A stretch of DNA of 64,000 bases, taken from NCBI GenBank assembly GCA_034434235.1, contig DAOTZV010000098.1:8879-72878 (forward strand), in the 5' to 3' direction. This DNA comes from Anaerolineae bacterium (GTDB lineage Bacteria; Chloroflexota; Anaerolineae; CG2-30-64-16). The number at the start of each line of letters is the position of its first letter. Within the stretch, counting starts at the first letter, position 1. Below are positions 14,122 through 30,338 of this stretch, piece by piece. The translations under genes and the position numbers were made by a program. Below the pieces are notes generated by a model. The model worked only from the letters and a program-made list of their open reading frames with translations. It was not told where the DNA came from and searched no databases.

Positions 14122-14132
14122 AGCGAGGCCTC

Positions 14133-16590: not shown

Positions 16591-17985
16591 CTATAGTGCG
16601 GCCGCTATTTCCTCGCGTACCCACGCCTCGGGCTCCACCGCGAGCCGTTCTATCAGCGCCTGCATGCCCTCGCGTTCGCCGATCTGCCCCAGGGCCCACG
16701 CCGCGTGCCCGCGGATCAGCGGCTCGGCATCGGCCAGCAGGCTCACGAGCGCCGGCACCAGGGTCCGATCGCCGGCGTTGCCCGCCGCGACGCATGCATT
16801 GCGCACCAGTCCGCGACGTCTGGCGCGCCAGATCGCCGTGCCCCGAAAGCGTCGTCTGAATGCCTCTTCGTCGAGCATCAATAGCTCCCGCAGCGGCATG
16901 GTCGCCCGCCCTGGATCGGCCGGCCAGCGCTCGCGGGGAGCCGGCGTCGCGCGCCGGTTGTATGGGCACACTTCCTGACACACATCGCATCCGAACACCC
17001 AGTTGCCCATGAGCGGCCGCAGATCGCGAGGGATCGGCCCGCGCAGCTCGATGGTCAGATAAGCGATGCAGCGCCGCGCGTCCAGCACGTGCGGCCCGAC
17101 AAACGCGCGCGTCGGGCACGCATCTAGGCAACGCGTGCATCGGCCACATCCACCCCCCTGACGGGAGGCCCCCCCAACCCCCCAATTCTGGGGGGCGCCA
17201 CCTTCCCCCCGCGATCGGGATGCCTGCGAGGCCCCCCCAACCCCCCAATTCTGGGGGGCGCCACCTTCCCTCCGCGATCGGGATGCCTGCGAGGCCCCCC
17301 CAACCCCCCAATTCTGGGGGGCGCCACCTTCCCCCCAGGGTTGGGGGGCCGGGGGGCCGTTCCCTTCCCCCCAGGGTTGGGGGGCCGGGGGGCCGTTCCC
17401 TTCCCCCCAGGGTTGGGGGGCCAGGGGGGCCGTTCCCAACTCGACGGCGTGATCGCGGGCGAGATCCTCCGGCACCGCCAGCGCCGCCAGGAACGTCCAC
17501 GAGCCCATCCCCGGCGCGATCAAGCAGGTGTTGCGGCCGATGAAGCCGAGACCGGCCTGGGCCGCGAAGTCGCGTTCCAGCAGCGGCGCGGTGTCCACGC
17601 ACGCCTTGCCCAGGCCCGTCCGGCCGGTGCGCGCCCGGATGAACGCGTCGAGCGCGAAAAGCCGCGCCTTGAGGAGGTCGTGGTAGTCGGCCGCCCACGC
17701 GTAGCGCGCAAAGCGACCGTGCGCCGGATCGTACCAGGTCGAGGGCGGTGGGCCAGAGAAGTAGTTGGCCGCCACCACGATCAGGCTGGTCATACCCGTC
17801 AGCCACGAGGCGGGATCGAGCCGTTCGGCCGCGCGGTTGGCCAGATAGGCCATCTCGCCGGCATAGCCGGCCGCCAGCCAGTCGGCGAACGCCGCGGCAT
17901 GGGCCGGCCGGCCGATGGGGATGATGCCGCCGCGGTCGAAGCCGAGCGCTTGCGCGTGGACCAGGATATCTTCAACCAGGGTCAT
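16591..17985 (-). CDS. queG: Epoxyqueuosine reductase QueG with ~100-aa in-frame tandem repeat insertion
   Basis: N-terminal cobalamin-binding region, 4Fe-4S motifs CGRCTRCLDACP / CDVCQEVCP, C-terminal HEAT repeats. Inserted (PQPWGEGNGPPA)x3 and (GGAPQNWGVGGASQASRSRREG)x3. Confidence 0.75.
   Translation of the reverse strand: MTLVEDILVHAQALGFDRGGIIPIGRPAHAAAFADWLAAGYAGEMAYLANRAAERLDPASWLTGMTSLIVVAANYFSGPPPSTWYDPAHGRFARYAWAADYHDLLKARLFALDAFIRARTGRTGLGKACVDTAPLLERDFAAQAGLGFIGRNTCLIAPGMGSWTFLAALAVPEDLARDHAVELGTAPLAPQPWGEGNGPPAPQPWGEGNGPPAPQPWGEGGAPQNWGVGGASQASRSRREGGAPQNWGVGGASQASRSRGEGGAPQNWGVGGASRQGGGCGRCTRCLDACPTRAFVGPHVLDARRCIAYLTIELRGPIPRDLRPLMGNWVFGCDVCQEVCPYNRRATPAPRERWPADPGRATMPLRELLMLDEEAFRRRFRGTAIWRARRRGLVRNACVAAGNAGDRTLVPALVSLLADAEPLIRGHAAWALGQIGEREGMQALIERLAVEPEAWVREEIAAAL
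17150..17450. repeat. Tandem repeats inside queG coding sequence: 63-bp unit x3 and 36-bp unit x3, both in frame
   Basis: Direct DNA repeats gaggcccccccaaccccccaattctggggggcgccaccttccccccgcgatcgggatgcctgc and agggttggggggccggggggccgttcccttcccccc. Confidence 0.85.
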
Positions 17986-18026
17986 GCCGGTATTATACTA
18001 TACTCTACTTGCGGCTGCGGTATAAT

Positions 18027-20726
18027 ATGCGCATGTCCGTCGAGTCCGCGTTGCAGGCGCTTCGGTTCGATCCGCGCTTCATGCGCCATGTCGGTCGCTG
18101 GGTGCATGTGCCGGCTCGCGCGGCGCGCTTCGCGGCCTTCCCGGCCGGGTTGGATCATCGCCTGGTCGAGGCGCTGGCGGCGCGCGGGGTGCACCAGCTC
18201 TACGCACACCAGGCCGAGGCGGTGGCCGCCGGCCTGCGGGGCGAGCATGTCGCCGTCGTGACGCCGGCCGCCAGCGGCAAGACGCTGTGCTACAACCTGC
18301 CCGTCCTTCAGCGCCTCCTGGCCGATCCCGCCGCGCGCGCCCTCTATCTCTATCCCACGAAGGCGCTGGCGCACGATCAGTTGGCCGGATTGCGCGAGCT
18401 GGCCGATCTGACCGTGGCGCACGCGGGCAACTTGCGCCGCAGATCCGAGCTGATCTGCGCGACCTATGACGGCGACACCCCTTCCGCGCAGCGGAGCAAG
18501 ATACGCGATACGGCCCGGATCCTCCTCTCGAATCCCGACATGCTCCACGCCGGCATCCTGCCGCAGCATCCGCGCTGGGCCGCCTTCTTCGCCAACCTGA
18601 CCGCGGTCGTGATTGACGAGATGCACGTCTATCGCGGGGTGTTCGGCTCGCACGTGGCGAACGTGTTGCGCCGCCTGCGCCGCATCTGTCGCTTCTACGG
18701 CAGCGACCCGCGCTTCTACCTGGCATCGGCCACCATTGCCAATCCCCAGGAGCTGGCCGAGCGCCTGGTCGAAGCGCCGGTCACCGTGATCGGCCCGGAA
18801 CGCGACGCCGCGCCGCAGGGCGAAAGGACGATCCTCTTCTACAACCCGCCCCTGCTCGACCCGGCGCTGGGGATCCGCCGCAGCGCCGGCCTGGAGGCCG
18901 CCGAGCTGGCCGCGCACTTCGTGCGGCACGACGCGCAGACCATCGTCTTCGGCCGCGCCCGTCTGACGGCCGAGCTGATCCTGACGTACCTGCGCCAGCA
19001 GCTCGCCGGCCGCGACGCCGCCCCACAGGAGTTCGGCGGTCTCGCGGCCACCGACGTGCAGCGCGCGATCCGTGGCTATCGCAGCGGCTACCTGCCGGCC
19101 GAACGCCGCGCCATCGAGGCGGGATTGCGCGATGGCACGGTGCGCGCGGTCGTGGCCACCAACGCCCTGGAACTGGGGATTGACATCGGCCAGATGGCCG
19201 CGGCGCTCCTGGCCGGCTATCCGGGCACGATTGCCGCCGCGCGGCAGCAGATGGGCCGCGCCGGCCGACGCCAGGGGGCGGCCGCGGCCGTGCTCGTCGC
19301 GGCGGCCGATCCGCTCGATCAATACCTGATCGCCCATCCGGAATACCTGCTCGAGCGGACGCCCGAACACGCCCGCCTCAATCCCGACAACGCGGTGATC
19401 CTGGCCGGCCATCTGGCGTGCGCCGCGGCCGAGCTGCCGTTCGAAGCCGGCGAGGAGTTCGGCCGGGCCGGCGTCGGGTTGGGGCCCGATGGCCTGGCGC
19501 GGCTGCTGGACGAGCTGGTGGAGGCGGGCAAGCTCTACCGCGCAGGCGGCCGCTACTTTTGGGCCGGGCCCGGTGCGCCCGCGGCTGCCATCAGCCTGCG
19601 CAGCAGTGCGGCCGAACGGGTCATCATCCAGGCGCCGGATCCCGCGGGCAAGCCCCAGGTGCTCGGCGAGATCGAACGCACCGCGGCCCCTCTGTTCGTC
19701 TACGAGGGGGCCATCTACTTGCACGAAGGGACGAGCTACCTGGTCGAGCGCCTGGATTGGCCGGCCGGCATCGCGTACGTCCGGCCCCTCGAGGCCGATT
19801 TCTACACCCGCCCTGTGGTCGGCGAAGGGGTCGAGGTGTTGGCCGTCCACGCGACGATGCACTTCGGCGCTCCGGCGGCCGATGAAGACAACGAGGCTTT
19901 CCGATGTTCGTGGGGCCGCGTTCGCGTCGCGCGGCAGGTGACCGGCTACCGGATCATGCGCCGGGGAACCAACGAGGTGTTGGGCTTCGGCGCCGTGGAC
20001 CTGCCCGAACATGCCTTCGAGACGGAAGGGTGTTGGCTGGAGCTTGCGGCCGATCTGGTGGAACAGCTTCGGCTGGAAGGGCGGTGGCTCTCGGATCCCA
20101 ACGATTACGGCCCGAACTGGGCCCAGCAGCGCGCGGCCGCTCGCGCCCGCGATGGCTTTCGATGCCAGGGTTGCGGCGCGCTGGAAGTCCCCGGTCGCCA
20201 GCACGATGTCCATCATCGCATCCCGTTGCGTGCGTTCGTCGCCGATCCCCACCTGCGCGGCGGCCTGCCGCCGGAACGCGCCTGGGAAGCGGCCAACGTG
20301 CTGGAGAACCTGGTGACGTTGTGTCCGGCGTGCCATCGCCGGGCCGAGACGGCCGTGCGCCTGCGCTCGGGGTTGGGCGCTGCGGCTGCGGCGCTCCTCG
20401 GCGTCGCGCCGATCTTCCTGATGTGCGATCCGGCCGATCTGGGCATGGTTGTCGAGCCGCAGGCGCCCGCGAGCGGCTTGCCCGCCATCACGATCTTCGA
20501 GCAGACGGCCGGCGGCATCGGCTATGCCGAACAGTTGTATCGCCTGATGCCCCAGGCGCTGGCGGCCGCGCTCGACCTGGTGCGCGGTTGTCCTTGCGAG
20601 CACGGTTGTCCGGGGTGCGTGGGCCCGACGCCGGAGCACGACTACATGCCGGACGCCAAAGCCCTGGCCCGCGCGCTTCTGGAAAGAATCGCTTCGGTTT
20701 CACCTTGCCAATCGTCGCAGCCGTGA
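18027..20726 (+). CDS. MrfA-like ATP-dependent helicase (DEXH helicase + DUF1998 Zn-binding domain) with inserted HNH endonuclease domain
   Basis: Helicase motifs (AASGKTL, DEMH, SAT). C-terminal 4-Cys DUF1998. ~94-aa insert carries HNH signature CQGCG...HDVHHRIP...N...CPACHRR and is absent from the paralog at 41912. Confidence 0.75.
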   Translation: MRMSVESALQALRFDPRFMRHVGRWVHVPARAARFAAFPAGLDHRLVEALAARGVHQLYAHQAEAVAAGLRGEHVAVVTPAASGKTLCYNLPVLQRLLADPAARALYLYPTKALAHDQLAGLRELADLTVAHAGNLRRRSELICATYDGDTPSAQRSKIRDTARILLSNPDMLHAGILPQHPRWAAFFANLTAVVIDEMHVYRGVFGSHVANVLRRLRRICRFYGSDPRFYLASATIANPQELAERLVEAPVTVIGPERDAAPQGERTILFYNPPLLDPALGIRRSAGLEAAELAAHFVRHDAQTIVFGRARLTAELILTYLRQQLAGRDAAPQEFGGLAATDVQRAIRGYRSGYLPAERRAIEAGLRDGTVRAVVATNALELGIDIGQMAAALLAGYPGTIAAARQQMGRAGRRQGAAAAVLVAAADPLDQYLIAHPEYLLERTPEHARLNPDNAVILAGHLACAAAELPFEAGEEFGRAGVGLGPDGLARLLDELVEAGKLYRAGGRYFWAGPGAPAAAISLRSSAAERVIIQAPDPAGKPQVLGEIERTAAPLFVYEGAIYLHEGTSYLVERLDWPAGIAYVRPLEADFYTRPVVGEGVEVLAVHATMHFGAPAADEDNEAFRCSWGRVRVARQVTGYRIMRRGTNEVLGFGAVDLPEHAFETEGCWLELAADLVEQLRLEGRWLSDPNDYGPNWAQQRAAARARDGFRCQGCGALEVPGRQHDVHHRIPLRAFVADPHLRGGLPPERAWEAANVLENLVTLCPACHRRAETAVRLRSGLGAAAAALLGVAPIFLMCDPADLGMVVEPQAPASGLPAITIFEQTAGGIGYAEQLYRLMPQALAAALDLVRGCPCEHGCPGCVGPTPEHDYMPDAKALARALLERIASVSPCQSSQP

Positions 20727-20861
20727 TATAATGGTTATGTGTGTCTGCACACAACCTCCTGTCGCGTTCACAATCGGTGGCTTTGCGGAGGGGCGCCTGG
20801 CCGGGCACCCCTGCTCCGCCCCGAAAGCCGACGGTGGCATCCCAATCGCAGCAAGAGGGTC

Positions 20862-21701
20862 ATGGATTTTCACCAACAGGTCGCGCTGGTGACCGGCGGA
20901 TCGAGCGGCATCGGCCTGGCAACGGCCAGGCTGCTGGCGGCGCGCGGGGCCAGGGTGTGGCTGGTGGCTCGCAACCCGGAGCGGCTGCGGGCCGCGCTGG
21001 CCGAGGTCGAGGCGGCAACCGGCGATGATGCCGGCCGACACGGCGCCATCCCGGCCGACGTCGCCGATCCCGCGCAGGCGGCCGGTGCCGTGCGGGCAGT
21101 GGCGGCCGCGGCCGGCGCGCCGACCATCATCGTTAACTCGGCCGGGATCGTCCTCCCCGGTTACGTTGAAGCGTTGACGCCTGACGCCTTTCGGGCCCAG
21201 ATCGAGGTCAACTACCTGGGAGCGGTTTACGTCATCCAGGCGGCTTTGCCCGCGCTGCTCGAGCGCGGGGCCGGCCACATCGTCAACGTGTGCTCGGCGG
21301 CCGGGTTCCTGGGCATGTTCGGCTACGCGGCCTATGCCGGCTCGAAGTTCGCCCTGCGCGGCTATTCCGATGTGTTGCGCGCCGAGCTGAAGCCGCGCGG
21401 GATCCATGTGGCCATCGCCTTCCCGCCCGATACCGATACCCCGCAACTGGCCTATGACCGACAGGTTCGGCCTGCCGAAATAGACCGGATCATCGGCGGC
21501 CGGGCGCAGGTGCTGTCGGCCGAGGCGGTGGCGCGGGCCATTGTGGACGGCATCGAGCGCCGACGCTACATCATCACCCCAGGATTGGACACGACTTTGG
21601 CTTTTTGGTTGAGCTGTGTCTTGGGGCCGCTGCAATATCCGATCATGGACCTTCTCGTTGCGCGCGCCTTGCGCCAGACGGGACGGTTGAAAGCGCGATA
21701 A
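20862..21701 (+). CDS. 3-ketodihydrosphingosine reductase-like short-chain dehydrogenase
   Basis: SDR motifs TGGSSGIG, NSAG, YxxxK (YAGSK). Extended similarity to KDSR segment SAAGFLGMFGYAAYAGSKFALRGYSDVLRAELKPRGIHVAIAFPPDTDTP. Confidence 0.65.
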   Translation: MDFHQQVALVTGGSSGIGLATARLLAARGARVWLVARNPERLRAALAEVEAATGDDAGRHGAIPADVADPAQAAGAVRAVAAAAGAPTIIVNSAGIVLPGYVEALTPDAFRAQIEVNYLGAVYVIQAALPALLERGAGHIVNVCSAAGFLGMFGYAAYAGSKFALRGYSDVLRAELKPRGIHVAIAFPPDTDTPQLAYDRQVRPAEIDRIIGGRAQVLSAEAVARAIVDGIERRRYIITPGLDTTLAFWLSCVLGPLQYPIMDLLVARALRQTGRLKAR

Positions 21702-21714
21702 GGAGGCAGAGATC

Positions 21715-22854
21715 ATGAGCGCGGGGATCGTCATCGAACCGGTGACCGATGCCAGAGGTATTTTGACCTTCGTGAAGTTCCCCTTCAAGCTGTACAGGGG
21801 CGATCCCAACTGGGTGCCGCCCTTCATCGAGGAACGCCGCGACTTTTTCGATCCCAAGAAGAACCCGTTCTATCAGCACGCCCGCTATCAGCTTTTCCTG
21901 GCGCGGCGGGGCGGCGAGCTGGTCGGCACGATCGGCGCGGTCATCAACGATAACCACAACGCCTTTCACAACGAACAGGTGGGCGCGTTCGGCTTCTTCG
22001 AGTGCATCAACGATCAGGCCGTGGCCGATGCCCTGTTCGAGGCGGCCGAAGATTGGGTGCGCGGCCAGGGGATGAAGGCGATCCGCGGGCCGCTCAACTT
22101 CTCGACCAACGACGAATGCGGCACCCTGATCGAGGGCTTTCACGAGCCGCCGATGGTCATGATGACCTACAACCCGCGCTACTATCCGGCCCTGATCGAG
22201 GGACACGGCTACACCAAGGCCATGGACCTGTTCGCCTGGATCATCGAGGATATCCCCGAGCGGTTGCCCTATGCACCGCAAAAGCTGGTGCATGTGGCAG
22301 AGAAAGCGGCCCAGAAGGAAGGGATCCGGCTGCGCGAGATAGATCGCAAGCACCTGGATCGGGACATTGACCTCATCAAGCAGATCTACAATCAGGCCTG
22401 GGAGAGGAACTGGGGCTTCGTGCCGCTGACCGACGCGGAGATAGACCATCTGGTGAAGGCCTTGTTGCCGGTGGCCGACATGCGCCTGGTGCTCCTGGCC
22501 GAGACGGAGGACGGTCGGCCCGTCGGCGTCTCGCTCACCTTGCCCGATCTGCATCAGGCGTTGAAGCGCGCCGGCGGCGGCCACATGTACCCGTTCGGCC
22601 TCCTGAAGTTCCTCTGGTATCGGCGCAAGATCAACCAGGCGCGGCTGCTCATCATGGGCGTCATCGAACAGTACCGGGGCCGCGGGGTGGATGCCTATTT
22701 TTACCTCACCACGGCGCGCAAGGCGGCCGAGTGCGGCTACAGGCGGCTCGAAGGCTCGTGGATCCTGGAGACCAACACGATGATGAACCGCATCATCGAG
22801 CGCCTGGGCGGCGTGAAGTATAAGACCTATCGCATCTACGAGAAGCCGCTATGA
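21715..22854 (+). CDS. GNAT/FemAB-fold N-acyltransferase (BioF2-like); candidate sphingoid-base N-acyltransferase
   Basis: 379 aa two-lobed acyltransferase-like protein. Strong RBS AAGGAGG. Translationally coupled within the operon. Confidence 0.45.
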   Translation: MSAGIVIEPVTDARGILTFVKFPFKLYRGDPNWVPPFIEERRDFFDPKKNPFYQHARYQLFLARRGGELVGTIGAVINDNHNAFHNEQVGAFGFFECINDQAVADALFEAAEDWVRGQGMKAIRGPLNFSTNDECGTLIEGFHEPPMVMMTYNPRYYPALIEGHGYTKAMDLFAWIIEDIPERLPYAPQKLVHVAEKAAQKEGIRLREIDRKHLDRDIDLIKQIYNQAWERNWGFVPLTDAEIDHLVKALLPVADMRLVLLAETEDGRPVGVSLTLPDLHQALKRAGGGHMYPFGLLKFLWYRRKINQARLLIMGVIEQYRGRGVDAYFYLTTARKAAECGYRRLEGSWILETNTMMNRIIERLGGVKYKTYRIYEKPL

Positions 22855-23834
22855 AAGTACTGGTCACCGGCGGAACCGGATTCGTCGGCTCGCAACTGGT
22901 CGCGGCGCTCGTGTGCCGGGGCGATCGGGTGCGGGTGTTGCGCCGCGCCAGCTCCGACCTGATCGCGCTCCAGGAGATCCCCGACGTCGAACACGTCATC
23001 GGCGATATCCTGGATCCGGCCGCGGTGGCCCGCGCCGTGGCCGGCTGCGATCTGGTCTTCCACGTGGCCGCGCTCTCCTCCTACTGGCGGGCCCAGCGCG
23101 AGGCGGTGTACCGGATCAACGTGGAAGGCACGCGCATCGTGATGGAGGCTTGCCTGGCGGCGCGCGTGCCGCGGGTGGTGTTCACGTCGTCCGTGGCGGC
23201 CATCGGCATGCGTCCCGACGGCCGGCCCGCGGACGAGACCACGGCGTTCGATCCCATCAGCGCGCGGCTGGCCTATGGCGACAGCAAGCACCGGGCCGAG
23301 GCCGTGGTGGCCGGCCTGGTCCGCCAGGGATTGGACGCGGTGATCGTCAACCCGGCCGCGGTGTTCGGCCCCGGGGATCATCATCTGATCTCGGGAAGCA
23401 TGATCGTGGAATACGCCCGACGTTCGCTGCCGGCCGTGCCGCCCGGCGGATTGTGCGTGGCCGATGTGGATGCGGTCGTGGCCGGGCACCTGGCAGCCGC
23501 CGAACGCGGTCGCACCGGCGAGCGTTACATCCTGGGCGGCGAGAACCTGTCTTTGCGCCAGATCGCGGAGATCATCTGCGGGGTGGTGGGCCGGCGGCCG
23601 CCGCGCTGGACGATCCCTCGCTGGGTGTTGCCGGTCGCGGCGCGCGGGGTGGATGCTTTCAACCGGATCAACCCGCGGCCGCCGCTCGTCAGCGGCGATC
23701 AGATCCGGTTGAGCGCGTACCGGCTCTTCTTCGATTCCGGCAAGGCCGTGCGCGAGCTGGGCTATCCCCTGTTGCCGTTCCGCGGCGCGGTGGAACGGGC
23801 TTATGCCTGGTACAAGGAACACGGCTATATCTAG
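22851..23834 (+). CDS. NAD-dependent epimerase/dehydratase family reductase (CerR/HpnA-like)
   Basis: GGTGFVGS Rossmann motif, YxxxK (YGDSK). ATGA overlap with upstream gene. Confidence 0.6.
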   Translation: MKVLVTGGTGFVGSQLVAALVCRGDRVRVLRRASSDLIALQEIPDVEHVIGDILDPAAVARAVAGCDLVFHVAALSSYWRAQREAVYRINVEGTRIVMEACLAARVPRVVFTSSVAAIGMRPDGRPADETTAFDPISARLAYGDSKHRAEAVVAGLVRQGLDAVIVNPAAVFGPGDHHLISGSMIVEYARRSLPAVPPGGLCVADVDAVVAGHLAAAERGRTGERYILGGENLSLRQIAEIICGVVGRRPPRWTIPRWVLPVAARGVDAFNRINPRPPLVSGDQIRLSAYRLFFDSGKAVRELGYPLLPFRGAVERAYAWYKEHGYI

Positions 23835-23839
23835 AAATC

Positions 23840-25033
23840 ATGGAGGGTTTTCCTGTGGATCTTTTCGATAAATGCTATCAGTTCACCGAGGCCAAAGCCG
23901 CTATCGCGGCCGGCATCTACCCCTACTTCCTGCCGTTGACCGGCAACGAGGGGACCGAGGCCATCTTCGGCAACAAGCGGCTCATCATGTGCGGCTCGAA
24001 CAATTATCTGGGGTTGACGGTGGACCCGCGCGTGCGCCAGGCCGCCATAGAGGCGATCGAGAAGTTCGGCACCAGTTGCACCGGCTCGCGCTTCCTCAAC
24101 GGCAACCTGGAGTTCCACGAACAGCTCGAGCGCGAGCTGGCCGAGTTCGTCGGCAAGGAGGCCGCGCTGGTCTTTTCCACCGGCATGCAGGTCAACCTGG
24201 GCACGATCAGCGCGCTGGTCGGCCGCGGGGATTACGTCATCCTGGACAAGGAGGACCACGCCAGCATCGTGGACGGCGCGCTGCTCAGCCTCGGCGAGGT
24301 CAAACGCTTTGCGCACAACGACCTGGACGACCTGGAGCGCCTCCTCAAGCGCCTGCCGGCCGACAAGGGCAAGCTGGTGGTGGTAGATGGCGTCTTTTCG
24401 ATGGGCGGCGACCTGGCCCCGCTCGACGAGCTGGTGCCGCTCTGCAAGAAGTACGGCGCGCGGCTGATGGTGGACGACGCGCACGGCATCGGCGTGACGG
24501 GCGGCGGTCGCGGCACGGCCTGGCAGTTCGGCGTGACCGAAGGGGTGGATCTGATCATGTCCACCTTCTCGAAGTCGTTTGCGTCGCTGGGCGGCTTCGT
24601 GGCCGGCGACGAGCCGGTCATCCACTACATCAAGCATCACGCCCGCTCGCTCCTCTTCAGCGCCAGCATCCCGCCTTCTAACGCGGCCGCGGCCCTGGCC
24701 GCGCTCAAGATCATGCGCGAGGAACCGGAACGGGTGAAGCGGCTGAACGAGATCGGGGATTACATGCGCGCCGGCTTCAAGCGCCTGGGCTTCAACATCG
24801 GCAATTCGGTCACGCCGATCATTCCGATCATCATCGGCGACCGGATGCGCACGGTGATGGTGTGGCACGCGCTGTTCCAGGCGGGCGTGTTCGTCAATCC
24901 GGTCTTGACGCCGGCCGTGCCCCCCGGCATGGATCTGTTGCGCACCAGCTACATGGCAACCCACACCGACGAGCAACTGGACAGGGTCCTGGCCGTCTTC
25001 GAGCAGGTGGGGAAGCAGATGGGGTTGATCTAG
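23840..25033 (+). CDS. Alpha-oxoamine synthase, serine palmitoyltransferase-like (PLP-dependent)
   Basis: PLP lysine in STFSKSFASLGGFVAG. Blocks GSNNYLGLTVDP, FSTGMQVNLGTISAL, DHASIVDG, LLFSASIPPS closely mirror bacterial SPT over the full length. Confidence 0.65.
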   Translation: MEGFPVDLFDKCYQFTEAKAAIAAGIYPYFLPLTGNEGTEAIFGNKRLIMCGSNNYLGLTVDPRVRQAAIEAIEKFGTSCTGSRFLNGNLEFHEQLERELAEFVGKEAALVFSTGMQVNLGTISALVGRGDYVILDKEDHASIVDGALLSLGEVKRFAHNDLDDLERLLKRLPADKGKLVVVDGVFSMGGDLAPLDELVPLCKKYGARLMVDDAHGIGVTGGGRGTAWQFGVTEGVDLIMSTFSKSFASLGGFVAGDEPVIHYIKHHARSLLFSASIPPSNAAAALAALKIMREEPERVKRLNEIGDYMRAGFKRLGFNIGNSVTPIIPIIIGDRMRTVMVWHALFQAGVFVNPVLTPAVPPGMDLLRTSYMATHTDEQLDRVLAVFEQVGKQMGLI

Positions 25034-25109
25034 GCTGAGGTTAAGGCTAAGGGGGAGGTTGGAAGATTATCTCTTCCTCTCCCTCAACCTTAACCTCAAC
25101 CCTCGTGGT

Positions 25110-25165
25110 CGCCAGCCCGCTTCAGCGGGCGTTGCCCGGGTAGCACGGGCACTTTATGCCCGTGC
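25110..25165. repeat. Family-C double-hairpin repeat (CGCCAGCCCGCTTCAGCGGGCGTTGCCCGGGTAGCACGGGCACTTTATGCCCGTGC), copy 1
   Basis: Near-identical 56-nt copy at 32210-32265. Contains hairpins GCCCGC-TTCA-GCGGGC and GCACGGGCA-CTTTA-TGCCCGTGC. Confidence 0.8.
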
Positions 25166-25229
25166 GGCGTTCGATCGCGCAGCCAGGCATCGGAGGGTTT
25201 CCTGTCGCCGCGCGGCGCATGCTCAGCTC

Positions 25230-25940
25230 TTATCGCGTCGTCTTGTTGCGTCGGAAGTCCACGAATCGGTAGCCGACCCCGCGCTCGGTGAGAATATAAC
25301 GCGGGTTGTCTGCATCCGGCTCGATCTTCTTGCGCAGATAGTTGATGTAGGTGCGCAAGAGCTGCATGTCGTCTCGATATTCGGGCCCCCACACTTTCGT
25401 GAGCAGGCTCTCCTGCGGCACGATCCAGCCGGCGTTCTCCACCAGGTAGAGCAACAGGCGATGTTCGGTCGGCCGCAGCTTGATGCGCTCTCCGCGCACG
25501 ATCACCTCGCGGCGCGGGAAGTCTATCGCCAGGTCCTCGTCGATCACCAGCGGCTCGTCGGCCTGAGCTTTGGTCGGCTCCATCCGCCGGAGCACCGCGC
25601 GGATGCGGCTGACCAGCTCGCGCGGACTGAACGGCTTGGTGACGTAATCGTCCGCGCCCAGGTCGAGGCCGCGGATGCGATCCTCTTCGTCCCCCTTCAC
25701 GGTGAGCATGATCACCGGCACCGACGACGTCCGGCGAATGCGTTCCAACGTCTCGAACCCGTCCAGGTCGGGCATCATTACGTCGAGCAGCACCAGGTCG
25801 GGCATGTCTTCGCGCACGCGCTCCAGGGCCACCAGCCCGTTCTCGGCCTCCAGCACGTCGAACCCCTCCAGCTCGAGGTTCATGCGCACGAAGCGGCGCA
25901 TGCGCGCTTCGTCGTCCACCACCAGGATGCGTTTTCTCAT
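25230..25940 (-). CDS. OmpR-family two-component response regulator
   Basis: Receiver domain with phosphoacceptor Asp ([11 protein letters not shown]) and winged-helix C-terminus (YRFVDF). Confidence 0.8.
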
Positions 25941-25971
25941 ACTTCACCTTCGTCGTGCATATCGGCTGCTG

Positions 25972-27603
25972 TCACTGAAGCGGCAAGGTGAAAAAGACGG
26001 TCGTCCCTTTGCCCGGTTCGCTGCGCAACCAGATCTGGCCGCCATGCGCCTCGACGATGGACTTGCAGAGATAAAGCCCCAGCCCGGCACCCTGGGTGCT
26101 GCGGCGCAGGCTCGAATCCACCCGATAGAAGCGCTGGAACAGCTTGCCTTGTTCTTCAAGCGGGATGCCGATCCCCTGGTCGGCCACGTAGACGGTGACC
26201 CGCGTCCGGTCGGCCCAGCCGCCGATGCGGATCTCGCCGCCGGCCGGCGAATACTTGATGGCATTGCTCACCAGGTTGTTCAAGACCTGGCGCAATCGCT
26301 CTTCGTCGCCCGACACGCACGGGAAGTCGGCGGGAAAATCGAGCACGAAGCGATGGTTCGTCGTCTGCACCCGAAAGCCTTCCACCACGCGCGCGGCCAG
26401 TTGCGGGAGCATCACGTCGCCGATCTCCAGCCTGAACGCGCCGGCCTGGATGCGCGAGGCGTCCAGCAGGTTGTTGATCAGCGCGTTCAGCCGGTCGCTC
26501 TCCTCGCTGATGATCTGGAGGCCCTCCCGCAGGGTGGCGCTATCCCAATGCGCGTCTTCGCGCGCCAGGGTATTGGCATACCCCTTGATGAGCGCCACCG
26601 GCGTCTTCAGCTCATGCGAAATGATCGAGATGAAGGTGGACTTCATCTCCTCGGCCTCGCGAAAACGGGTGATGTCCACCACGTTGGCGATCACCTGCGC
26701 CAGCCGGTCCTCTTCGTCGTAGAGGGGCGAGTAGGTGACGCTGACGGCGATGCGCGAGCCGCCCGGCCTGGAGAGCAACCCTTCCACGGTCAGCGGCTGG
26801 CCATCGGGAAAGCGCGCTTCGGCCGGATCGGCCCCGCACAGATTGGGGCCCGAGGCCTGTTCCAGCGCCAACACCTCGTAGCATGGCCGGCCGATGGCGG
26901 CCTCGGCCGGCCAGCCGGTCATCTGGCTCAGCGCCCGGTTGAAGACCTGGATGCGCAGGTCGGGATCGAGGATCATGATCCCGTCGGCGCTGTGCTGGAT
27001 GATCGCGTCCAGTTGCTGCTTCTCGGCGATCACCTGCTGGTAGAGCTGTGCGTTGCGCACCGCGATCGCGGCCTGGTCGGCGAAGCTGGTGAGCACCGCG
27101 CGATCGTTGGCGGTGAACGCGACGCTGCCGCTGCGGAAAAGGTAGATCACCCCGAGCAACCGCTCCTCGAACGTCAGCGGCAGCGCGATGACCTGGTGGA
27201 GGGGAAGCAGGATCGCGTGCGCCACCATCTCCAGCCGCAGCTCCAGGTCGGGAAAGATGAACTGATCGGCGCGCAGGGGCACGTCGTCGAGCAGCGGCGC
27301 GAAGCGCGGCAACAGGCTGCTCGGGATGTTGTAGCTGGCGCGGATCACCAGCGAATTCGTATGCCCGCGGCGCAACGCGATCAAGCCGGCCTCGGCTCGC
27401 ACGATCTCCGCGGCGTTCGTCAGGATCAGCCGCAAAAGGGACGGCAGATCGAGCCGCGAGGTCATCGCCCGGCTGATCTGCAACAGGTATTCGCGCTGGC
27501 GCAACTGATAGCTGATCACGGTCCCTCGATGGAAGTGGATTGCGGGCAACGGTTTACGGCCCCATTGTACCCCAGAACCCCCGACTCCGCCAACTCCGCC
27601 CAT
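25972..27603 (-). CDS. Sensor histidine kinase, cytoplasmic, tandem GAF domains + HisKA + HATPase_c
   Basis: H-box SHELKTP, N/G boxes (NLVSNAIKYS, GAGLGLYLCKS). Start uncertain: ORF track start is TTG at 27657 through Gly-rich low complexity; first in-frame ATG is 27603. Confidence 0.7.
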   Translation of the reverse strand: MGGVGGVGGSGVQWGRKPLPAIHFHRGTVISYQLRQREYLLQISRAMTSRLDLPSLLRLILTNAAEIVRAEAGLIALRRGHTNSLVIRASYNIPSSLLPRFAPLLDDVPLRADQFIFPDLELRLEMVAHAILLPLHQVIALPLTFEERLLGVIYLFRSGSVAFTANDRAVLTSFADQAAIAVRNAQLYQQVIAEKQQLDAIIQHSADGIMILDPDLRIQVFNRALSQMTGWPAEAAIGRPCYEVLALEQASGPNLCGADPAEARFPDGQPLTVEGLLSRPGGSRIAVSVTYSPLYDEEDRLAQVIANVVDITRFREAEEMKSTFISIISHELKTPVALIKGYANTLAREDAHWDSATLREGLQIISEESDRLNALINNLLDASRIQAGAFRLEIGDVMLPQLAARVVEGFRVQTTNHRFVLDFPADFPCVSGDEERLRQVLNNLVSNAIKYSPAGGEIRIGGWADRTRVTVYVADQGIGIPLEEQGKLFQRFYRVDSSLRRSTQGAGLGLYLCKSIVEAHGGQIWLRSEPGKGTTVFFTLPLQ

Positions 27604-27722
27604 TCCCCAACCCCCAGCCCCTGGTCTCCCTCCCCCATTCCCTCGCCCCTCATCCAATCACTTGCCCCGACTTCCACCCCGTGCTATAATTGCGCCAGCG
27701 TTTCACATTGAAAGGCGATCCT

Positions 27723-28559
27723 ATGACCCCAGCCAATCGTATTCGCAGAACCATCGGTAACGTCCTGGTCGTGGCCGGCGTGCTTCTCTTGCTCGTCGGC
27801 TGTTCGATCTTCGCGCGTCAACAACTGGAGGGCGAGCAGTTGCGGGCCGAGCTGCAATCCACGCCGACCGCGGTTGCCGCGCCGGCGACCCCCACGGCCG
27901 CGCCGGCTCCGACCATCGCCCCGCCGACGCCGACCACGGCGCCGACCGTCCCGACGACCCTGCCGCCCACCGCCACGTCTGTTCCGGCCAGTCCCACGCC
28001 GACCGCCACGGAGCCGATCGCCCATGCGGCCGCGGCCAACGCCACGCCCGATCTGCCCGTGCGGATCGTCATCCCCGATCTCAAGCTCGATGCGCCGGTG
28101 GTCGAGATGGGGTGGACCATTGTCAACACGGCCGCCGGACCCCAATCCGATTGGGTCATCCCGAAGAACGCGGCCGGCCACCACATCAACAGTGCAGCGC
28201 TGAACGAAGAAGGCAACATCGTCATCTCCGGGCACAACAACATCGAGGGCAAGGTGTTCGAGGCGATCAGCCTGGCGTGGGACGAGAAGACCAAAGTCCG
28301 CGTAGATGACGTGACCGACCGGTCGGACATCCTGAAGGGGCGCAAGATCGTGCTCTACAACGCGGCCGGCAAGGCTTTCAACTACACGATCAGCGATTTC
28401 CTGCGCCTGAAGGATGCGGGCGTTTCCGCGGAACAGCGGCTGAAGAACGCCCGCTTCATGGATCCAACCCCCGAGCGTCGTCTGACCCTGGTCACATGTT
28501 GGCCACCATGGAGCAACACGCATCGCCTGATCGTCATCGCGACGCCGGCGCAGCCGTGA
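27723..28559 (+). CDS. Sortase-family transpeptidase, N-terminal membrane anchor and Pro/Thr-rich linker
   Basis: Catalytic TLVTC motif (RLTLVTCWP) and conserved His region (ISGHNN). TATAAT at 27685. Confidence 0.75.
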   Translation: MTPANRIRRTIGNVLVVAGVLLLLVGCSIFARQQLEGEQLRAELQSTPTAVAAPATPTAAPAPTIAPPTPTTAPTVPTTLPPTATSVPASPTPTATEPIAHAAAANATPDLPVRIVIPDLKLDAPVVEMGWTIVNTAAGPQSDWVIPKNAAGHHINSAALNEEGNIVISGHNNIEGKVFEAISLAWDEKTKVRVDDVTDRSDILKGRKIVLYNAAGKAFNYTISDFLRLKDAGVSAEQRLKNARFMDPTPERRLTLVTCWPPWSNTHRLIVIATPAQP

Positions 28560-28576
28560 GCGGGTCGCCGGCCGGC

Positions 28577-29611
28577 ATGGCTGTGGCGCGCCGGGGATGG
28601 GGCGTCCGGTTGCAGATCTGGCTGGGCGCGGCCATCGCGCTGGGCACGATCTACCTGGCGGCGCGGGCCGTGGACTTCGGCCAGCTTTTCCGGGCCTTGC
28701 AGGAGGTGCGCCTGCCGTTCGTCCTGGTGGCTTTGGGCACGGCCCTGGGGACCAATGTCCTGAAGGCCGCTCGCTGGCGGGCGTTGTTCCATCCGCGGCC
28801 GGCCCGACTGAGCCTGCTGCAGTTGACCAACCTGATCGTCGTCGGCCAGGCCGTCAACTTCTATATCCCTGCGCGGCTCGGCGAACTCGTGCGGGCCTAT
28901 CTGACGGGCGAAGAGGCGGGCGTCAGCAAAGTCTATGCGCTGGGCACCATCGCCGCGGAAAAGCTCATTGACATCATCGTGTTGGCGCTGTTGATCGCGG
29001 CCATGTTGCCCTTCCTGGCTTTGCCCGATTGGTTGGCCGGCCGGATCGGGCCCCTTTTTTTGACCGCATTGGCCGTGTGCATCGTGATCGCCGGCCTGGT
29101 CGGCGGCCGGCGGCTGATCTGGCGGCCGATCGAGTGGGGCTTGGGCTTGCTGCCGGCCGCCTGGGGCGAACGCTGGCGAACGCGGCTGCGCGCCGGCCTG
29201 GATGGGTTGAGCGCGTTGGGTTCGCCGCGAGCCGCCGCGGCGGTGTGGGGATGGACGATTGCCTTTTGGCTGGTCGCAGCGTTCACCAATTACCTGCTGC
29301 TGTTGGCTTTCGATCTGCCGGCCTCGGCCTTGATGGCCTTCTTCCTGTTGGCCGTCCTTCAGGCGGGAGTGGCCGTGCCGTCTACGCCGGGCAAGATCGG
29401 GGTGTTTCACTACCTGTGCATCCTGGGCCTGGGTGTGTTCAATGTGTCGGCGACGACCGGCCTGGCGTATGGCCTGGTGCTCCATGCGCTGGTGGTCGGG
29501 GGCGTGAGCTTGTGGGCGGCCGCGGCGTTGTGGCGACGGAGCTGGAACCTGCGTCGCCTGGCCGAGGCATCCCGAGATGGATCGGATCAGCTTGAAGGGA
29601 GACAGATATGA
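28577..29611 (+). CDS. Lysylphosphatidylglycerol-synthase-TM-like / flippase-like integral membrane protein
   Basis: ~8 TM helices. Pattern resembles the LPG_synthase_TM (UPF0104) family; no C-terminal synthase domain. Confidence 0.5.
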   Translation: MAVARRGWGVRLQIWLGAAIALGTIYLAARAVDFGQLFRALQEVRLPFVLVALGTALGTNVLKAARWRALFHPRPARLSLLQLTNLIVVGQAVNFYIPARLGELVRAYLTGEEAGVSKVYALGTIAAEKLIDIIVLALLIAAMLPFLALPDWLAGRIGPLFLTALAVCIVIAGLVGGRRLIWRPIEWGLGLLPAAWGERWRTRLRAGLDGLSALGSPRAAAAVWGWTIAFWLVAAFTNYLLLLAFDLPASALMAFFLLAVLQAGVAVPSTPGKIGVFHYLCILGLGVFNVSATTGLAYGLVLHALVVGGVSLWAAAALWRRSWNLRRLAEASRDGSDQLEGRQI

Positions 29612-30282
29612 AGCGCGAATTCCGCCTGGCGGGCTATCTTCTGCTGCTGGCGATCTTGCTGGGATCGCTGGCCGCCGGCCCGCAGGTTTGGGCTACGCCA
29701 GATCAAACCGCGAGCAACCAGACGGTGCCCACGCGGACACCGAAGCCGCCCGCGCCGACCGTTGCGCCCACGGCCGCGCCGCGGCCCACGTCTGAGCCGC
29801 AGCCGACCGCGCCGCAACCCACTGCCACAGCGCCCGTCGCGGCCACGCCGTCGCCCACGGCCGTCGCGCCGGCGGGTCGCGTCGACTTGAGCCTGGCGCT
29901 GAGCGTCGCTCCGGTGCAGGTCTGGTCGGGCGTGACGGTGGTCTACACATTGACGGTGACGAACCTTTCGATGAGCGCCCTGCGCGATGTCGTGTTGCTC
30001 GATCCGTTGCCCGCCGACCTGGAGCCCGGCGCGATCCTGGTCGGCCGCGACGTCGGCTGGCAATCCGGCGCCCTGCGCGCCACCTTCGCGGAGCTGGCGG
30101 CCGGCGCACAGGCCGAGGTGATCTTCACGGCGAAGGTGGCGGCCGGGGTGCCGGCCGGCAAGGTGATCGTCAACCGGGCTACGGCCACGGCCGGCGCGGC
30201 GTCGGCCAGCGCGAGCGCGGCCATCGCCATGCCGCCGGCCGAGCTGCCCGCCGTCGGGAGCGGTGCCGTCTGCATTCGTTGA
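29608..30282 (+). CDS. Secreted DUF11 (conserved repeat domain) protein
   Basis: Signal peptide, Pro/Thr/Ala linker, DUF11-like block VVYTLTVTNLSMSALRDVVLLDPLP. Stop codon lies inside a 23-bp tandem repeat. Confidence 0.55.
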   Translation: MKREFRLAGYLLLLAILLGSLAAGPQVWATPDQTASNQTVPTRTPKPPAPTVAPTAAPRPTSEPQPTAPQPTATAPVAATPSPTAVAPAGRVDLSLALSVAPVQVWSGVTVVYTLTVTNLSMSALRDVVLLDPLPADLEPGAILVGRDVGWQSGALRATFAELAAGAQAEVIFTAKVAAGVPAGKVIVNRATATAGAASASASAAIAMPPAELPAVGSGAVCIR

Positions 30283-30330
30283 CGTATTTTGTCTACATTC
30301 GTTAACGTATTTTGTCTACATTCGTTGACG
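30273..30330. repeat. 23-bp direct tandem repeat x2.5 (CATTCGTTGACGTATTTTGTCTA)
   Basis: Units at 30273-30295 and 30296-30318 plus a partial copy. Spans DUF11 stop and the region immediately upstream of the DUF2723 ATG. Confidence 0.8.
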
Positions 30331-30338
30331 TTTCCTGG

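What the first reader, a model, noticed from the sequence alone, without database searches (positions are those of the whole stretch)
20862..25033. Four-gene sphingolipid-type biosynthesis operon (KDSR homolog, N-acyltransferase, NAD-epimerase-type reductase, SPT-like alpha-oxoamine synthase)
Four tightly coupled genes encode the enzyme set needed to make a ceramide-like lipid, unexpected in this lineage. The genes overlap or sit within 6-14 nt of each other. The SDR has long identical blocks with eukaryotic 3-ketodihydrosphingosine reductase (CSAAGFLGMFGYAAYAGSKFALRGYSDVLRAELKPRGIHVAIAFPPDTDTP). The PLP enzyme follows serine palmitoyltransferase block by block (STFSKSFASLGGFVAG, LLFSASIPPS). 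These flank a FemAB/GNAT-fold N-acyltransferase and an NAD-dependent epimerase-family reductase, the two activities used for bacterial ceramide synthesis in Caulobacter (bCerS-type acyltransferase, CerR-type reductase). Having a KDSR-like enzyme and a CerR-like reductase together suggests a hybrid or novel route, or a related amino-lipid product. No ACP or acyl-ACP synthetase gene is adjacent.
Basis: partly seen in the sequence, partly recalled or inferred. Interest (0 to 1): 0.8.

Follow-up and report, generated by a model that had tools for sequence, protein, structure and literature searches.

The report
Chloroflexota ceramide operon with extra KDSR
Four co-oriented genes in a Chloroflexota genome look like a ceramide-type (sphingolipid) pathway: the known bacterial trio of enzymes plus an extra reductase resembling the animal enzyme, which could help settle the order of steps in bacterial ceramide synthesis.

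Summary
Four tightly packed + strand genes lie at 20862-25033.

- **g4:** a PLP alpha-oxoamine synthase. It groups with characterised serine palmitoyltransferases (SPT), not with KBL or BioF.
- **g2:** a tandem-GNAT protein. It is a full-length homologue (35-38% identity) of the sphingomonad orthologue of Caulobacter ceramide synthase bCerS.
- **g3:** an extended SDR in the position that the ceramide reductase CerR holds in such clusters. In sequence it sits at the HpnA/Gox2253 end of that group.
- **g1:** a classical SDR, 39% identical over 250 residues to vertebrate 3-ketodihydrosphingosine reductase (KDSR). That is closer than fungal TSC10 is to vertebrate KDSR.

The g2-g3-g4 trio is the known bacterial ceramide set. 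It recurs next to g2 homologues in about half of 80 metagenome loci, and AOS-bCerS fusion proteins exist. Chloroflexota were already predicted to make sphingolipids (Ding et al. 2024), so "unexpected in this lineage" is out of date.

The KDSR-like gene appears to be the undescribed part. In 9 of 9 Chloroflexota contigs examined it sits beside the SPT-like gene, either as a KDSR-SPT pair or in the four-gene form. Close relatives carry the trio without it.

No lipid product has been demonstrated. I rate this a new variant of a known kind, of moderate interest.

The parts
20705..20732 (+). Sigma-70-like promoter candidate (TTGCCA, 16 nt, TG-TATAAT) at the 3' end of the upstream helicase gene, about 130 nt before g1
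   Evidence: 11 of 12 consensus positions with an extended -10 TG. Two such sites were found in the region against 0.8 expected from shuffles. This is a consensus match only; function is not shown.
20862..21701 (+). g1: classical SDR of the KDSR (3-ketodihydrosphingosine reductase)-like subfamily, 279 aa. Motifs: TGGSSGIG (aa 11-18), ARN (36-38), NSAG (92-95), Ser145, YAGSK (158-162), PPDTDTP (188-194). No transmembrane segment.
   Evidence: Pfam adh_short 159.8 bits. 39% identity over 250 aa and 158-172 bits to vertebrate KDSR. A vertebrate KDSR HMM gives 169.3 bits, and g1 is the only ORF of 150 aa or more in the window that it hits. The best solved SDR reaches only 114 bits. Homologues are named '3-dehydrosphinganine reductase' by JGI. 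Motif positions and hydropathy.
21715..22854 (+). g2: tandem-GNAT N-acyltransferase of the bacterial ceramide synthase (bCerS) family, 379 aa
22851..23834 (+). g3: extended SDR (NAD(P)-dependent epimerase/3-beta-HSD type), 327 aa, in the CerR position of the cluster. Motifs: TGGTGFVG (aa 6-13), TSS (112-114), YGDSK (142-146). No signal peptide.
   Evidence: Pfam Epimerase 119 bits and 3Beta_HSD 104.9 bits. TIGR03466 HpnA 328.4 bits, below its cutoff of 367.65. PDB 3wj7 Gox2253 228 bits. 29-33% identity (94-95 bits for the best hits) to sphingomonad CerR-position ORFs. NJ tree.
23840..25033 (+). g4: PLP-dependent alpha-oxoamine synthase of the serine palmitoyltransferase-like clade, 397 aa (392 aa if it starts at GTG 23855). 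PLP lysine in TFSKS (Lys245), His140 in DHASI, Asp213/His215 in DDAH, Arg368 in LLRTS.
   Evidence: NCBIfam SPT-CFB 517.9 bits, SPT-beta 406.4, bioF 382.9, KBL 341.8; all are below their equivalog cutoffs. PDB: Sphingobacterium multivorum SPT 410.6 bits, S. wittichii SPT 328.6, Thermus AOS 272.5, KBL 244.7, BioF 224.5. NJ tree. Motif positions.

Best explanation
This is an operon for a ceramide-type (dihydroceramide or closely related N-acyl long-chain amino-alcohol) membrane lipid in a Chloroflexota bacterium. The lineage is probably Anaerolineae, judging by the names on the closest MAG proteins.

Proposed mechanism (inferred from homology and gene context, not demonstrated):
1. g4 condenses an amino acid, most likely L-serine, with a long-chain acyl thioester to give a 3-keto long-chain base.
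2. g2, a bCerS-family tandem GNAT, N-acylates the amino group.
3. The C3 keto group is reduced by two different reductases acting at two stages. g1 (KDSR-like, with an NADPH-type ARN motif) acts on the free 3-keto base, as in eukaryotes. g3 (the extended SDR in the CerR position) acts on the N-acylated 3-oxo intermediate, as proposed for Caulobacter.

The four genes are probably transcribed together from a promoter just upstream of g1. All four proteins lack transmembrane segments, so they are expected to be soluble or peripheral, like bacterial Spt, bCerS and CerR.
For: **Shown by tool results**
- g4 ranks with characterised SPTs in HMM and PDB searches. It lies in a clade with S. multivorum SPT and bCerS-adjacent AOS genes (145/200 bootstraps), inside a clade with all SPTs that excludes E. 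coli Kbl and BioF (126/200).
- g2 is a full-length homologue of the ORF at the cerS position in sphingomonad sphingolipid loci.
- Among 80 metagenome loci picked only for a g2 relative, about 45 carry a g4-like AOS (51-60% identity) next to it and about as many carry a g3-like extended SDR. Natural AOS-g2 fusions exist: P0141 (780 aa) and P0265.
- g1 matches vertebrate KDSR better than any solved SDR does, and the match includes the PPDTDTP motif.
- g1 homologues lie directly beside the SPT-like gene in 9 of 9 Chloroflexota contigs examined: window, L087, L170-L173, L178-L180.
- Catalytic motifs are intact in g1, g3 and g4.
- Gene spacing is -4 to 13 nt and there is a strong promoter-like site upstream.

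**From the literature**
- Spt, bCerS and CerR form the bacterial ceramide pathway and are often clustered (PMC11334938; PMC11087976).

**Inferred**
- The substrates, the order of steps and the division of labour between g1 and g3.
Against: - No lipid data exist for this organism or for any cultured relative.
- g4 is below every NCBIfam SPT equivalog cutoff (518 against 640), and the bioF model scores higher than the alpha-proteobacterial SPT model. Tree support for the SPT clade is only moderate (63-72%).
- The amino-acid substrate cannot be read from the sequence with these tools.
- g3 scores 328 bits on the HpnA model but only 81-95 bits against sphingomonad CerR.
- g1 scores equally on a generic uncharacterised SDR model, PRK06181, at 169.6 bits. 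It is far below the Bacteroides KDSR equivalog (110 against 400).
- Two reductases for a single keto group is redundant. One of them may do something else.
- I did not obtain the Caulobacter bCerS and CerR sequences themselves. Orthology runs through sphingomonad loci and a published orthologue table.
Confidence: 0.7

Rival explanations
1. KDSR-first route with g3 doing a different job. g1 is the only C3 keto reductase (Spt, then KDSR, then bCerS, as in eukaryotes). g3, an HpnA/3-beta-HSD-like enzyme, modifies something else: a sugar nucleotide for a glycosyl head group, or another carbonyl or hydroxyl on the lipid.
For: g3 is far closer to the 'hopanoid-associated sugar epimerase' model HpnA (328 bits) and to Gox2253 (228 bits) than to sphingomonad CerR (81-95 bits). 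KDSR-SPT pairs exist without g2 or g3 (L171, L173, L180), so g1 can serve the SPT on its own.
Against: Close relatives have g2-g3-g4 with no g1 in the cluster (L088, L089, L090). There the g3 type would have to be the reductase. Every cluster-associated reductase, including the sphingomonad CerR orthologues, has HpnA as its best NCBIfam model. g3 joins them in the NJ tree, though weakly (118/200). No glycosyltransferase lies in the operon.
Confidence: 0.2
2. The product is a related amino lipid rather than a serine-derived sphingolipid. g4 may use alanine, glycine or another amino acid, giving 1-deoxy-ceramide-like or other N-acyl amino-ketone or amino-alcohol lipids.
For: g4 is below all SPT equivalog cutoffs. 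Related AOS enzymes accept other substrates, for example the cysteate-C-fatty acyltransferase at 246.5 bits. The supplement of PMC11334938 cites work showing that 1-deoxyceramides are made by the same enzyme set when alanine replaces serine.
Against: The nearest characterised enzymes are genuine serine palmitoyltransferases at 410 and 329 bits, well above the cysteate enzyme, KBL and BioF. The partner genes are those of ceramide synthesis.
Confidence: 0.15
3. g1 is only a neighbour: a generic SDR inserted between the helicase gene and a three-gene ceramide cluster, with no role in the pathway.
For: g1 is missing from the cluster in L088, L089 and L090, and from all 80 g2-centred metagenome loci. 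A generic SDR model scores it as well as the KDSR profile does.
Against: In 9 of 9 contigs its homologues sit immediately upstream of the cluster or of the SPT-like gene itself, including three contigs where it is the SPT's only partner. It lies 13 nt from g2 on the same strand. It resembles KDSR more than any other characterised SDR tested.
Confidence: 0.05
4. Housekeeping KBL or BioF chemistry: g4 is a glycine C-acetyltransferase or an 8-amino-7-oxononanoate synthase, and the neighbouring genes are unrelated.
For: The bioF and KBL models give high scores (383 and 342 bits), as expected within one superfamily.
Against: SPT models and structures score higher. g4 is separated from E. coli BioF and Kbl in the tree. 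No tdh or bio genes are nearby. The linkage to bCerS homologues is conserved and fusion proteins exist.
Confidence: 0.02

Closest known systems
Bacterial ceramide synthesis genes spt, bcerS and cerR of Caulobacter crescentus (CC_1162, CC_1154, CC_1164) and their sphingomonad orthologues
   Same: The same three enzyme classes occur together: an SPT-like AOS, a tandem-GNAT bCerS homologue (35-38% identity, full length) and an extended SDR reductase. All are predicted to be soluble.
   Different: Here the three genes are contiguous and translationally coupled. There is no dedicated ACP or acyl-ACP synthetase (acpR, aasR) within 10 kb. g3 is only about 30% identical to sphingomonad CerR and is nearer to HpnA. 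An extra KDSR-like gene is present. Chloroflexota are generally regarded as lacking an outer membrane (my own knowledge, not tested), so the periplasmic CerR model (PMC11087976) may not carry over.
Eukaryotic 3-ketodihydrosphingosine reductase (KDSR/FVT1; fungal Tsc10)
   Same: g1 shares 39% identity over about 250 residues with vertebrate KDSR. The match includes the cofactor motif, the ARN motif, the Ser-Tyr-Lys catalytic residues and the PPDTDTP block, and runs on into the C-terminal region.
   Different: g1 lacks the N- and C-terminal membrane anchors of the eukaryotic enzyme (279 aa, no hydrophobic segment). It is encoded in an operon with its presumed pathway partners.
Bacteroides thetaiotaomicron KDSR BT_0972 (NCBIfam NF049977)
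   Same: A classical SDR proposed to reduce 3-ketosphinganine in a bacterium (PMC9278070).
   Different: g1 scores only 110 bits against this equivalog (cutoff 400), and only over the generic N-terminal core. PMC9278070 reports 'no full homologs' of yeast or human KDSR in B. thetaiotaomicron, with candidates at about 16-30% identity. g1 is 39% identical to vertebrate KDSR and sits next to the SPT-like gene.
HpnA (TIGR03466, hopanoid-associated sugar epimerase) and Gox2253 (PDB 3wj7)
   Same: These are the best family model and the best solved structure for g3, matched over the full length (328 and 228 bits).
   Different: g3 is below the HpnA cutoff (367.65). It sits between a bCerS homologue and an SPT homologue rather than in a hopanoid cluster. 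No hopanoid genes are called within 10 kb.
Spt-like genes predicted in Chloroflexota MAGs from the Black Sea (Ding et al. 2024, ISME J, PMC11334938)
   Same: Same phylum and same inference: Anaerolineae carry Spt-like genes and are candidate sphingolipid producers.
   Different: In the passages I read, that work looked for Spt, bCerS and CerR only. It does not mention the KDSR-like gene or the two-, three- and four-gene architectures.

Membership tests
Serine palmitoyltransferase (bacterial Spt, alpha-oxoamine synthase family) | Fold-type I PLP enzyme with the AOS catalytic residues (Schiff-base Lys, PLP-stacking His, Asp/His pair, C-terminal Arg) | tested here: met
   Aminotran_1_2 193 bits. 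Lys245 (TFSKS), His140 (DHASI), Asp213/His215 (DDAH) and Arg368 (LLRTS) align with the same residues of solved SPTs.
Serine palmitoyltransferase (bacterial Spt, alpha-oxoamine synthase family) | Reaches a curated SPT equivalog score | tested here: not met
   NF047600 517.9 against 640; NF047599 406.4 against 500; NF047603 353.6 against 670. SPT models still rank first and second.
Serine palmitoyltransferase (bacterial Spt, alpha-oxoamine synthase family) | Groups with characterised SPTs rather than KBL or BioF | tested here: met
   PDB ranking: SPT 410.6 and 328.6 bits, ahead of 272.5, 244.7 and 224.5 for other AOS enzymes. NJ tree: the SPT clade excluding Kbl and BioF has 126/200 support, and the subclade with S. 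multivorum SPT has 145/200. Support is moderate.
Serine palmitoyltransferase (bacterial Spt, alpha-oxoamine synthase family) | Uses L-serine and a long-chain acyl thioester | not testable with these tools
   Needs an enzyme assay or lipid analysis.
Bacterial ceramide synthase bCerS (CC_1154 family) | Full-length sequence homology to CC_1154 orthologues | tested here: met
   35-38% identity over residues 1-379, E 1e-70 to 1e-81, to ORFs in 31 sphingomonad loci. In L034 the matching ORF lies downstream of spt after an LptF/LptG-type gene, consistent with Swit_3908. CC_1154 itself was not available.
Bacterial ceramide synthase bCerS (CC_1154 family) | GNAT-superfamily acyltransferase fold | tested here: met
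Bacterial ceramide synthase bCerS (CC_1154 family) | Genomic linkage to spt | tested here: met
   Adjacent genes in the window. A g4-like AOS lies next to g2 relatives in about 45 of 80 loci. Fusion proteins P0141 and P0265 exist.
Bacterial ceramide synthase bCerS (CC_1154 family) | N-acylates a long-chain base | not testable with these tools
   Needs biochemistry.
Ceramide reductase CerR (CC_1164 family) | Extended SDR with a Rossmann GxxGxxG motif and a catalytic S...YxxxK | tested here: met
   TGGTGFVG (aa 6-13), TSS (112-114), YGDSK (142-146). Pfam Epimerase and 3Beta_HSD.
Ceramide reductase CerR (CC_1164 family) | Closer to CerR orthologues than to other extended-SDR subfamilies | tested here: inconclusive
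   81-95 bits to sphingomonad CerR, against 328 bits on the HpnA model and 228 bits to Gox2253. However, all cluster reductases have HpnA as their best model. In the NJ tree g3 joins them, with Gox2253 outside, at 118/200.
Ceramide reductase CerR (CC_1164 family) | Encoded next to spt and bcerS | tested here: met
   It lies between g2 and g4. The same arrangement occurs in L087-L090, L172, L178 and L179.
Ceramide reductase CerR (CC_1164 family) | Periplasmic location, as reported for Caulobacter CerR | tested here: not met
   The cofactor motif starts at residue 6, leaving no room for a signal peptide. This feature may not apply to Chloroflexota.
3-ketodihydrosphingosine reductase (KDSR/FVT1-like classical SDR) | Classical SDR motifs (TGxxxGxG, NNAG-like, Ser-Tyr-Lys) | tested here: met
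   TGGSSGIG, NSAG, Ser145, YAGSK. adh_short 159.8 bits.
3-ketodihydrosphingosine reductase (KDSR/FVT1-like classical SDR) | Specific similarity to authentic KDSR beyond the generic SDR core | tested here: met
   39% identity over 250 aa, including PPDTDTP and the region after it. phmmer scores to the listed KDSR hits are 157-166 bits, against 114 for the best solved SDR and 105.6 for vertebrate KDSR against TSC10. JGI names homologues '3-dehydrosphinganine reductase'. Caveat: the generic model PRK06181 scores the same as the KDSR profile (169.6 against 169.3).
3-ketodihydrosphingosine reductase (KDSR/FVT1-like classical SDR) | Reaches the curated bacterial KDSR equivalog (NF049977, Bacteroides type) | tested here: not met
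   110.2 bits against a cutoff of 400, and only over the N-terminal 200 residues.
3-ketodihydrosphingosine reductase (KDSR/FVT1-like classical SDR) | Membrane anchors of the eukaryotic enzyme | tested here: not met
   The highest 19-residue hydropathy window (1.75) lies in the Rossmann core. There is no terminal hydrophobic segment.
3-ketodihydrosphingosine reductase (KDSR/FVT1-like classical SDR) | Reduces 3-ketosphinganine with NADPH | not testable with these tools
   Needs an enzyme assay.

The most novel reading that the evidence does not exclude
Chloroflexota carry a stand-alone, eukaryote-like two-step module for making free sphinganine: an SPT plus a KDSR that is 39% identical to the animal enzyme. 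This module is combined in some genomes with the bacterial bCerS/CerR-type module. The four-gene operon would then hold both solutions to the keto-reduction step. That would mean the first two steps of sphingolipid synthesis share ancestry, or were exchanged, between bacteria and eukaryotes. It would also mean that the KDSR-first and bCerS-first orders both operate in bacteria, even within one cell.
Probability: 0.3. Interest if true: 0.7.

Novelty: new variant of a known kind. Interest (0 to 1): 0.55.

Why it matters
Two groups currently disagree on how bacteria order the steps of ceramide synthesis: reduction before N-acylation, as in eukaryotes, or N-acylation first (PMC11087976, PMC9278070). 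The only bacterial KDSR candidate so far, BT_0972, resembles the eukaryotic enzyme only weakly. Its role in vivo is not clear, because it appears to be essential and no loss-of-function mutant was available.

This operon and its relatives offer a natural experiment. The same SPT orthologue occurs with a KDSR-like gene only, with bCerS plus a CerR-type gene only, or with all three. Expressing these sets in a host that makes no sphingolipids would show directly which reductase acts on which intermediate.

The operon also gives a concrete gene set for the proposal that abundant sedimentary and hot-spring Chloroflexota contribute environmental ceramides. It further raises the question of what sphingolipids do in a bacterium that probably has no outer membrane.

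Tried and rejected
- **Reference paper not held.** The paper that defined bCerS and CerR (Stankeviciute et al. 2022) could not be opened by DOI or PMC id. The supplements of PMC11334938 held no sequences. I therefore used the one genome-collection scan to fetch sphingomonad spt loci with the S. wittichii SPT sequence rebuilt from PDB 2x8u. I identified cerS and cerR by position, using the orthologue table in PMC11324152. Caulobacter proteins themselves were never compared.
- **Alignment too diverse.** An 11-sequence alignment worked.
- **Bootstrap timeout.** A Biopython bootstrap run timed out. It was replaced by a faster NJ with Kimura distances. These are simple distance trees, not maximum likelihood.
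- **Human KDSR from memory.** It was used only after the database returned 99%-identical proteins named KDSR, and all comparisons used the returned sequences.
- **Rejected readings.** The KBL/BioF reading was rejected on scores, tree and context. The reading of g1 as a random neighbour was rejected on 9/9 synteny.
- **Not attempted.** I did not predict the amino-acid substrate of g4 from active-site residues, because I had no tested rule to apply.

Full report
**Observation**

- g1: 20862-21701, 279 aa
- g2: 21715-22854, 379 aa
- g3: 22851-23834, 327 aa
- g4: 23840-25033, 397 aa

The gaps are 13 nt, a 4-nt overlap, and 5 nt. g4 may instead begin at GTG 23855, seven bases after a GGAGGG Shine-Dalgarno sequence. 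That is the 392-aa call made on some identical contigs.

A strong sigma-70-like site (TTGCCA, 16 nt, TG-TATAAT; 11 of 12 positions) lies at 20705-20732, just upstream of g1. No terminator-like site separates the genes. An identical g2 in the same gene context occurs on 15 public metagenome contigs. The closest named relatives are MAG proteins labelled Anaerolineae or Chloroflexi bacterium. The window is 61-73% G+C throughout, with no compositional break at the cluster.

**g4, the alpha-oxoamine synthase**

Pfam gives Aminotran_1_2 at 193 bits. Among NCBIfam models the two best are serine palmitoyltransferase models: CFB type at 517.9 bits and beta-proteobacterial type at 406.4. They are followed by bioF at 382.9, a BioF/Kbl subfamily at 365.6, alpha-proteobacterial SPT at 353.6 and KBL at 341.8. 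None reaches its equivalog cutoff.

Against solved structures the order is clearer:
- Sphingobacterium multivorum SPT: 410.6 bits
- Sphingomonas wittichii SPT: 328.6
- S. paucimobilis SPT: about 307
- Thermus BioF/KBL-like AOS: 272.5
- cysteate acyltransferase: 246.5
- KBL: 244.7
- BioF: 224.5

The PLP lysine (TFSKS), the stacking histidine (DHASI), the DDAH pair and the C-terminal arginine (LLRTS) align with those of the SPTs.

In an NJ tree g4 sits in a Chloroflexota clade with 200/200 support. That clade lies inside a group with S. multivorum SPT, AOS genes found next to bCerS homologues, and the AOS half of a fusion protein (145/200). This group in turn lies inside a clade with the sphingomonad SPTs that excludes E. 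coli Kbl and BioF (126/200). Support is moderate, and the amino-acid substrate remains an inference.

**g2, the acyltransferase**

For a direct test of the bCerS claim I fetched 80 sphingomonad loci around spt. A published table places cerR (Swit_3897) three genes before spt (Swit_3900) and cerS (Swit_3908) eight genes after it in S. wittichii. g2 matches an ORF 6-9 kb downstream of spt in 31 of these loci. The match is 35-38% identical over essentially its whole length, with E values of 1e-70 to 1e-81. In L034 that ORF follows an LptF/LptG-type gene and one further ORF, consistent with the order CC_1156, CC_1155, CC_1154 in Caulobacter.

The family is large: 1727 50%-identity clusters at E<=1e-30. 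Some members are fused to an AOS domain, namely P0141 (780 aa) and P0265. g2 is therefore a member of the bCerS family by homology and by linkage. Its activity is inferred.

**g3, the extended SDR**

g3 has an N-terminal TGGTGFVG motif, a TSS motif and a YGDSK motif. Its best family is TIGR03466 HpnA at 328.4 bits, below the cutoff of 367.65. The sterol demethylase protein SdmB (213.8 bits) and OleD (112.3 bits) follow. The best solved structure is Gox2253 at 228 bits.

The ORF at the cerR position of the sphingomonad loci matches g3 at only 29-33% identity (best hits 94-95 bits). Reductases found next to g2 and g4 relatives in other metagenomic lineages are generally closer to sphingomonad CerR (107-177 bits) than to g3 (75-139 bits).

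Even so, every one of these cluster reductases, the sphingomonad ones included, has HpnA as its best NCBIfam model, at 78-180 bits. In an NJ tree the Chloroflexota g3 group joins them as the first, short branch, with Gox2253 outside, at 118/200. I read g3 as the least diverged, HpnA-like end of the CerR-type group. CerR orthology is plausible but not established.

**g1, the classical SDR**

Generic SDR models dominate the NCBIfam list. The Bacteroides KDSR equivalog gives only 110 bits against a cutoff of 400. The database returned 120 proteins, nearly all of those carrying a source name labelled 3-ketodihydrosphingosine or 3-dehydrosphinganine reductase, and the best was 99% identical to the query.

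Against these returned sequences:
- g1 is 39% identical over 250 residues, at 157-166 bits by phmmer for the listed hits and 170-172 by BLASTP. The alignment covers the cofactor motif, an ARN motif, the catalytic YxxxK, the PPDTDTP block and the region beyond it.
- The best solved SDR reaches only 114 bits against g1.
- Vertebrate KDSR reaches only 105.6 bits against fungal TSC10.
- A profile of the vertebrate enzymes scores g1 at 169.3 bits and hits no other ORF of 150 aa or more in the window.
- JGI annotation names many g1 homologues 3-dehydrosphinganine reductase.

g1 has no hydrophobic anchor.

**Comparative context, the main new result**

In Chloroflexota relatives the g2-g3-g4 trio is conserved with 68-80% identity between corresponding proteins. 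It lies in the same neighbourhood: QueG, an Hrq1-like DEAD helicase, then the cluster, then a response regulator and a GAF-PAS histidine kinase.

g1 is variable, giving three architectures:
- **Four genes, with g1:** window, L087, L170, L172, L178, L179
- **Trio without g1:** L088, L089, L090
- **g1 followed directly by the SPT-like gene, without g2 or g3:** L171, L173, L180

Every g1 homologue whose context I examined (9 of 9) touches the cluster or the SPT-like gene. The SPT-like genes of all three architectures form one clade. None of the 80 metagenome loci centred on more distant g2 relatives has a g1-like gene within 7 kb. The KDSR-like gene is therefore a Chloroflexota-specific partner of SPT in this sample.

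**Mechanism**

The best-supported reading is a ceramide-type lipid operon:
1. g4 makes a 3-keto long-chain base.
2. g2 N-acylates it.
3. The keto group is reduced by g1 at the free-base stage, by g3 at the N-acyl stage, or by both.

The existence of KDSR-SPT pairs argues that g1 can serve SPT alone. The existence of trios without g1 argues that g3 can as well. All of this is inference from homology and linkage. No lipid has been measured.

The main rival keeps the pathway but gives g3 a different job. A second rival changes the amino-acid substrate. Readings in which g1 is a bystander, or g4 is KBL or BioF, are poorly supported.

**Comparison with what is known, and novelty**

The trio is the known bacterial ceramide gene set. 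Spt-like genes have already been reported in 218 Chloroflexota MAGs and correlated with ceramides in the Black Sea, so the lineage is not a surprise any more.

I could not find the following described in the searchable literature:
- a KDSR homologue this close to the eukaryotic enzyme encoded beside a bacterial SPT;
- its occurrence as a two-gene module;
- its coexistence with a CerR-type reductase in a single operon.

This bears on an open disagreement about the order of steps in bacterial ceramide synthesis. I rate it a new variant of a known kind, with moderate interest.

Noticed in passing
window 17165-17437 (inside the queG-like gene, 16591-17985, minus strand): Two adjacent in-frame tandem repeat arrays (63 nt x 2.7 copies and 36 nt x 3.1 copies, both 98% matches) insert Gly/Pro/Trp-rich repeats into the epoxyqueuosine reductase-like protein. 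The gene encodes 464 aa here but 431 aa on contig L001, and it is split on L003, so copy number seems to vary between populations.
   Followed up: partly
P0141 (780 aa), P0265 (648 aa), P0121 (784 aa); In other lineages the bCerS-like domain is fused to an N-terminal alpha-oxoamine synthase domain (P0141; P0265 is a fragment). P0121 appears to carry two bCerS-like units in tandem (two matched stretches, GNAT hits in both halves).
   Followed up: partly
window about 16591-31000; loci L087-L089, L170-L172, L179: The gene order is conserved across Chloroflexota contigs at 68-80% protein identity: QueG, then an Hrq1-like DEAD helicase with an MZB/HNH tail, then the lipid cluster, then a response regulator and a GAF-PAS histidine kinase on the opposite strand, then a sortase, an LPG_synthase_TM protein and a TMEM260-like protein. 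I did not examine whether the two-component system regulates the cluster.
   Followed up: no
window 11651-15175: A fabF-like ketoacyl synthase (11651-12988, minus strand) and plsX (12985-14031, minus strand) lie about 7-9 kb upstream. Beside them is a second NAD-dependent epimerase/3-beta-HSD-type gene (about 14204-15175, plus strand; 323 aa on L001). A plsX-fabF pair also lies near the KDSR-SPT pair in L173.
   Followed up: no
L089, L171, L178, L179 (downstream of the SPT-like gene): In several relatives a large Peptidase_C1 (papain-family) gene of about 620-640 aa follows the SPT-like gene on the same strand. It is absent from the window.
   Followed up: no
L170 (9267-9974) and L172 (7864-9001): In these contigs (named contig_NNNNN) the g3 homologue is truncated (235 aa) and the g2 homologue is split into two ORFs (240 + 144 aa). 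These could be assembly frameshifts or real pseudogenes.
   Followed up: no
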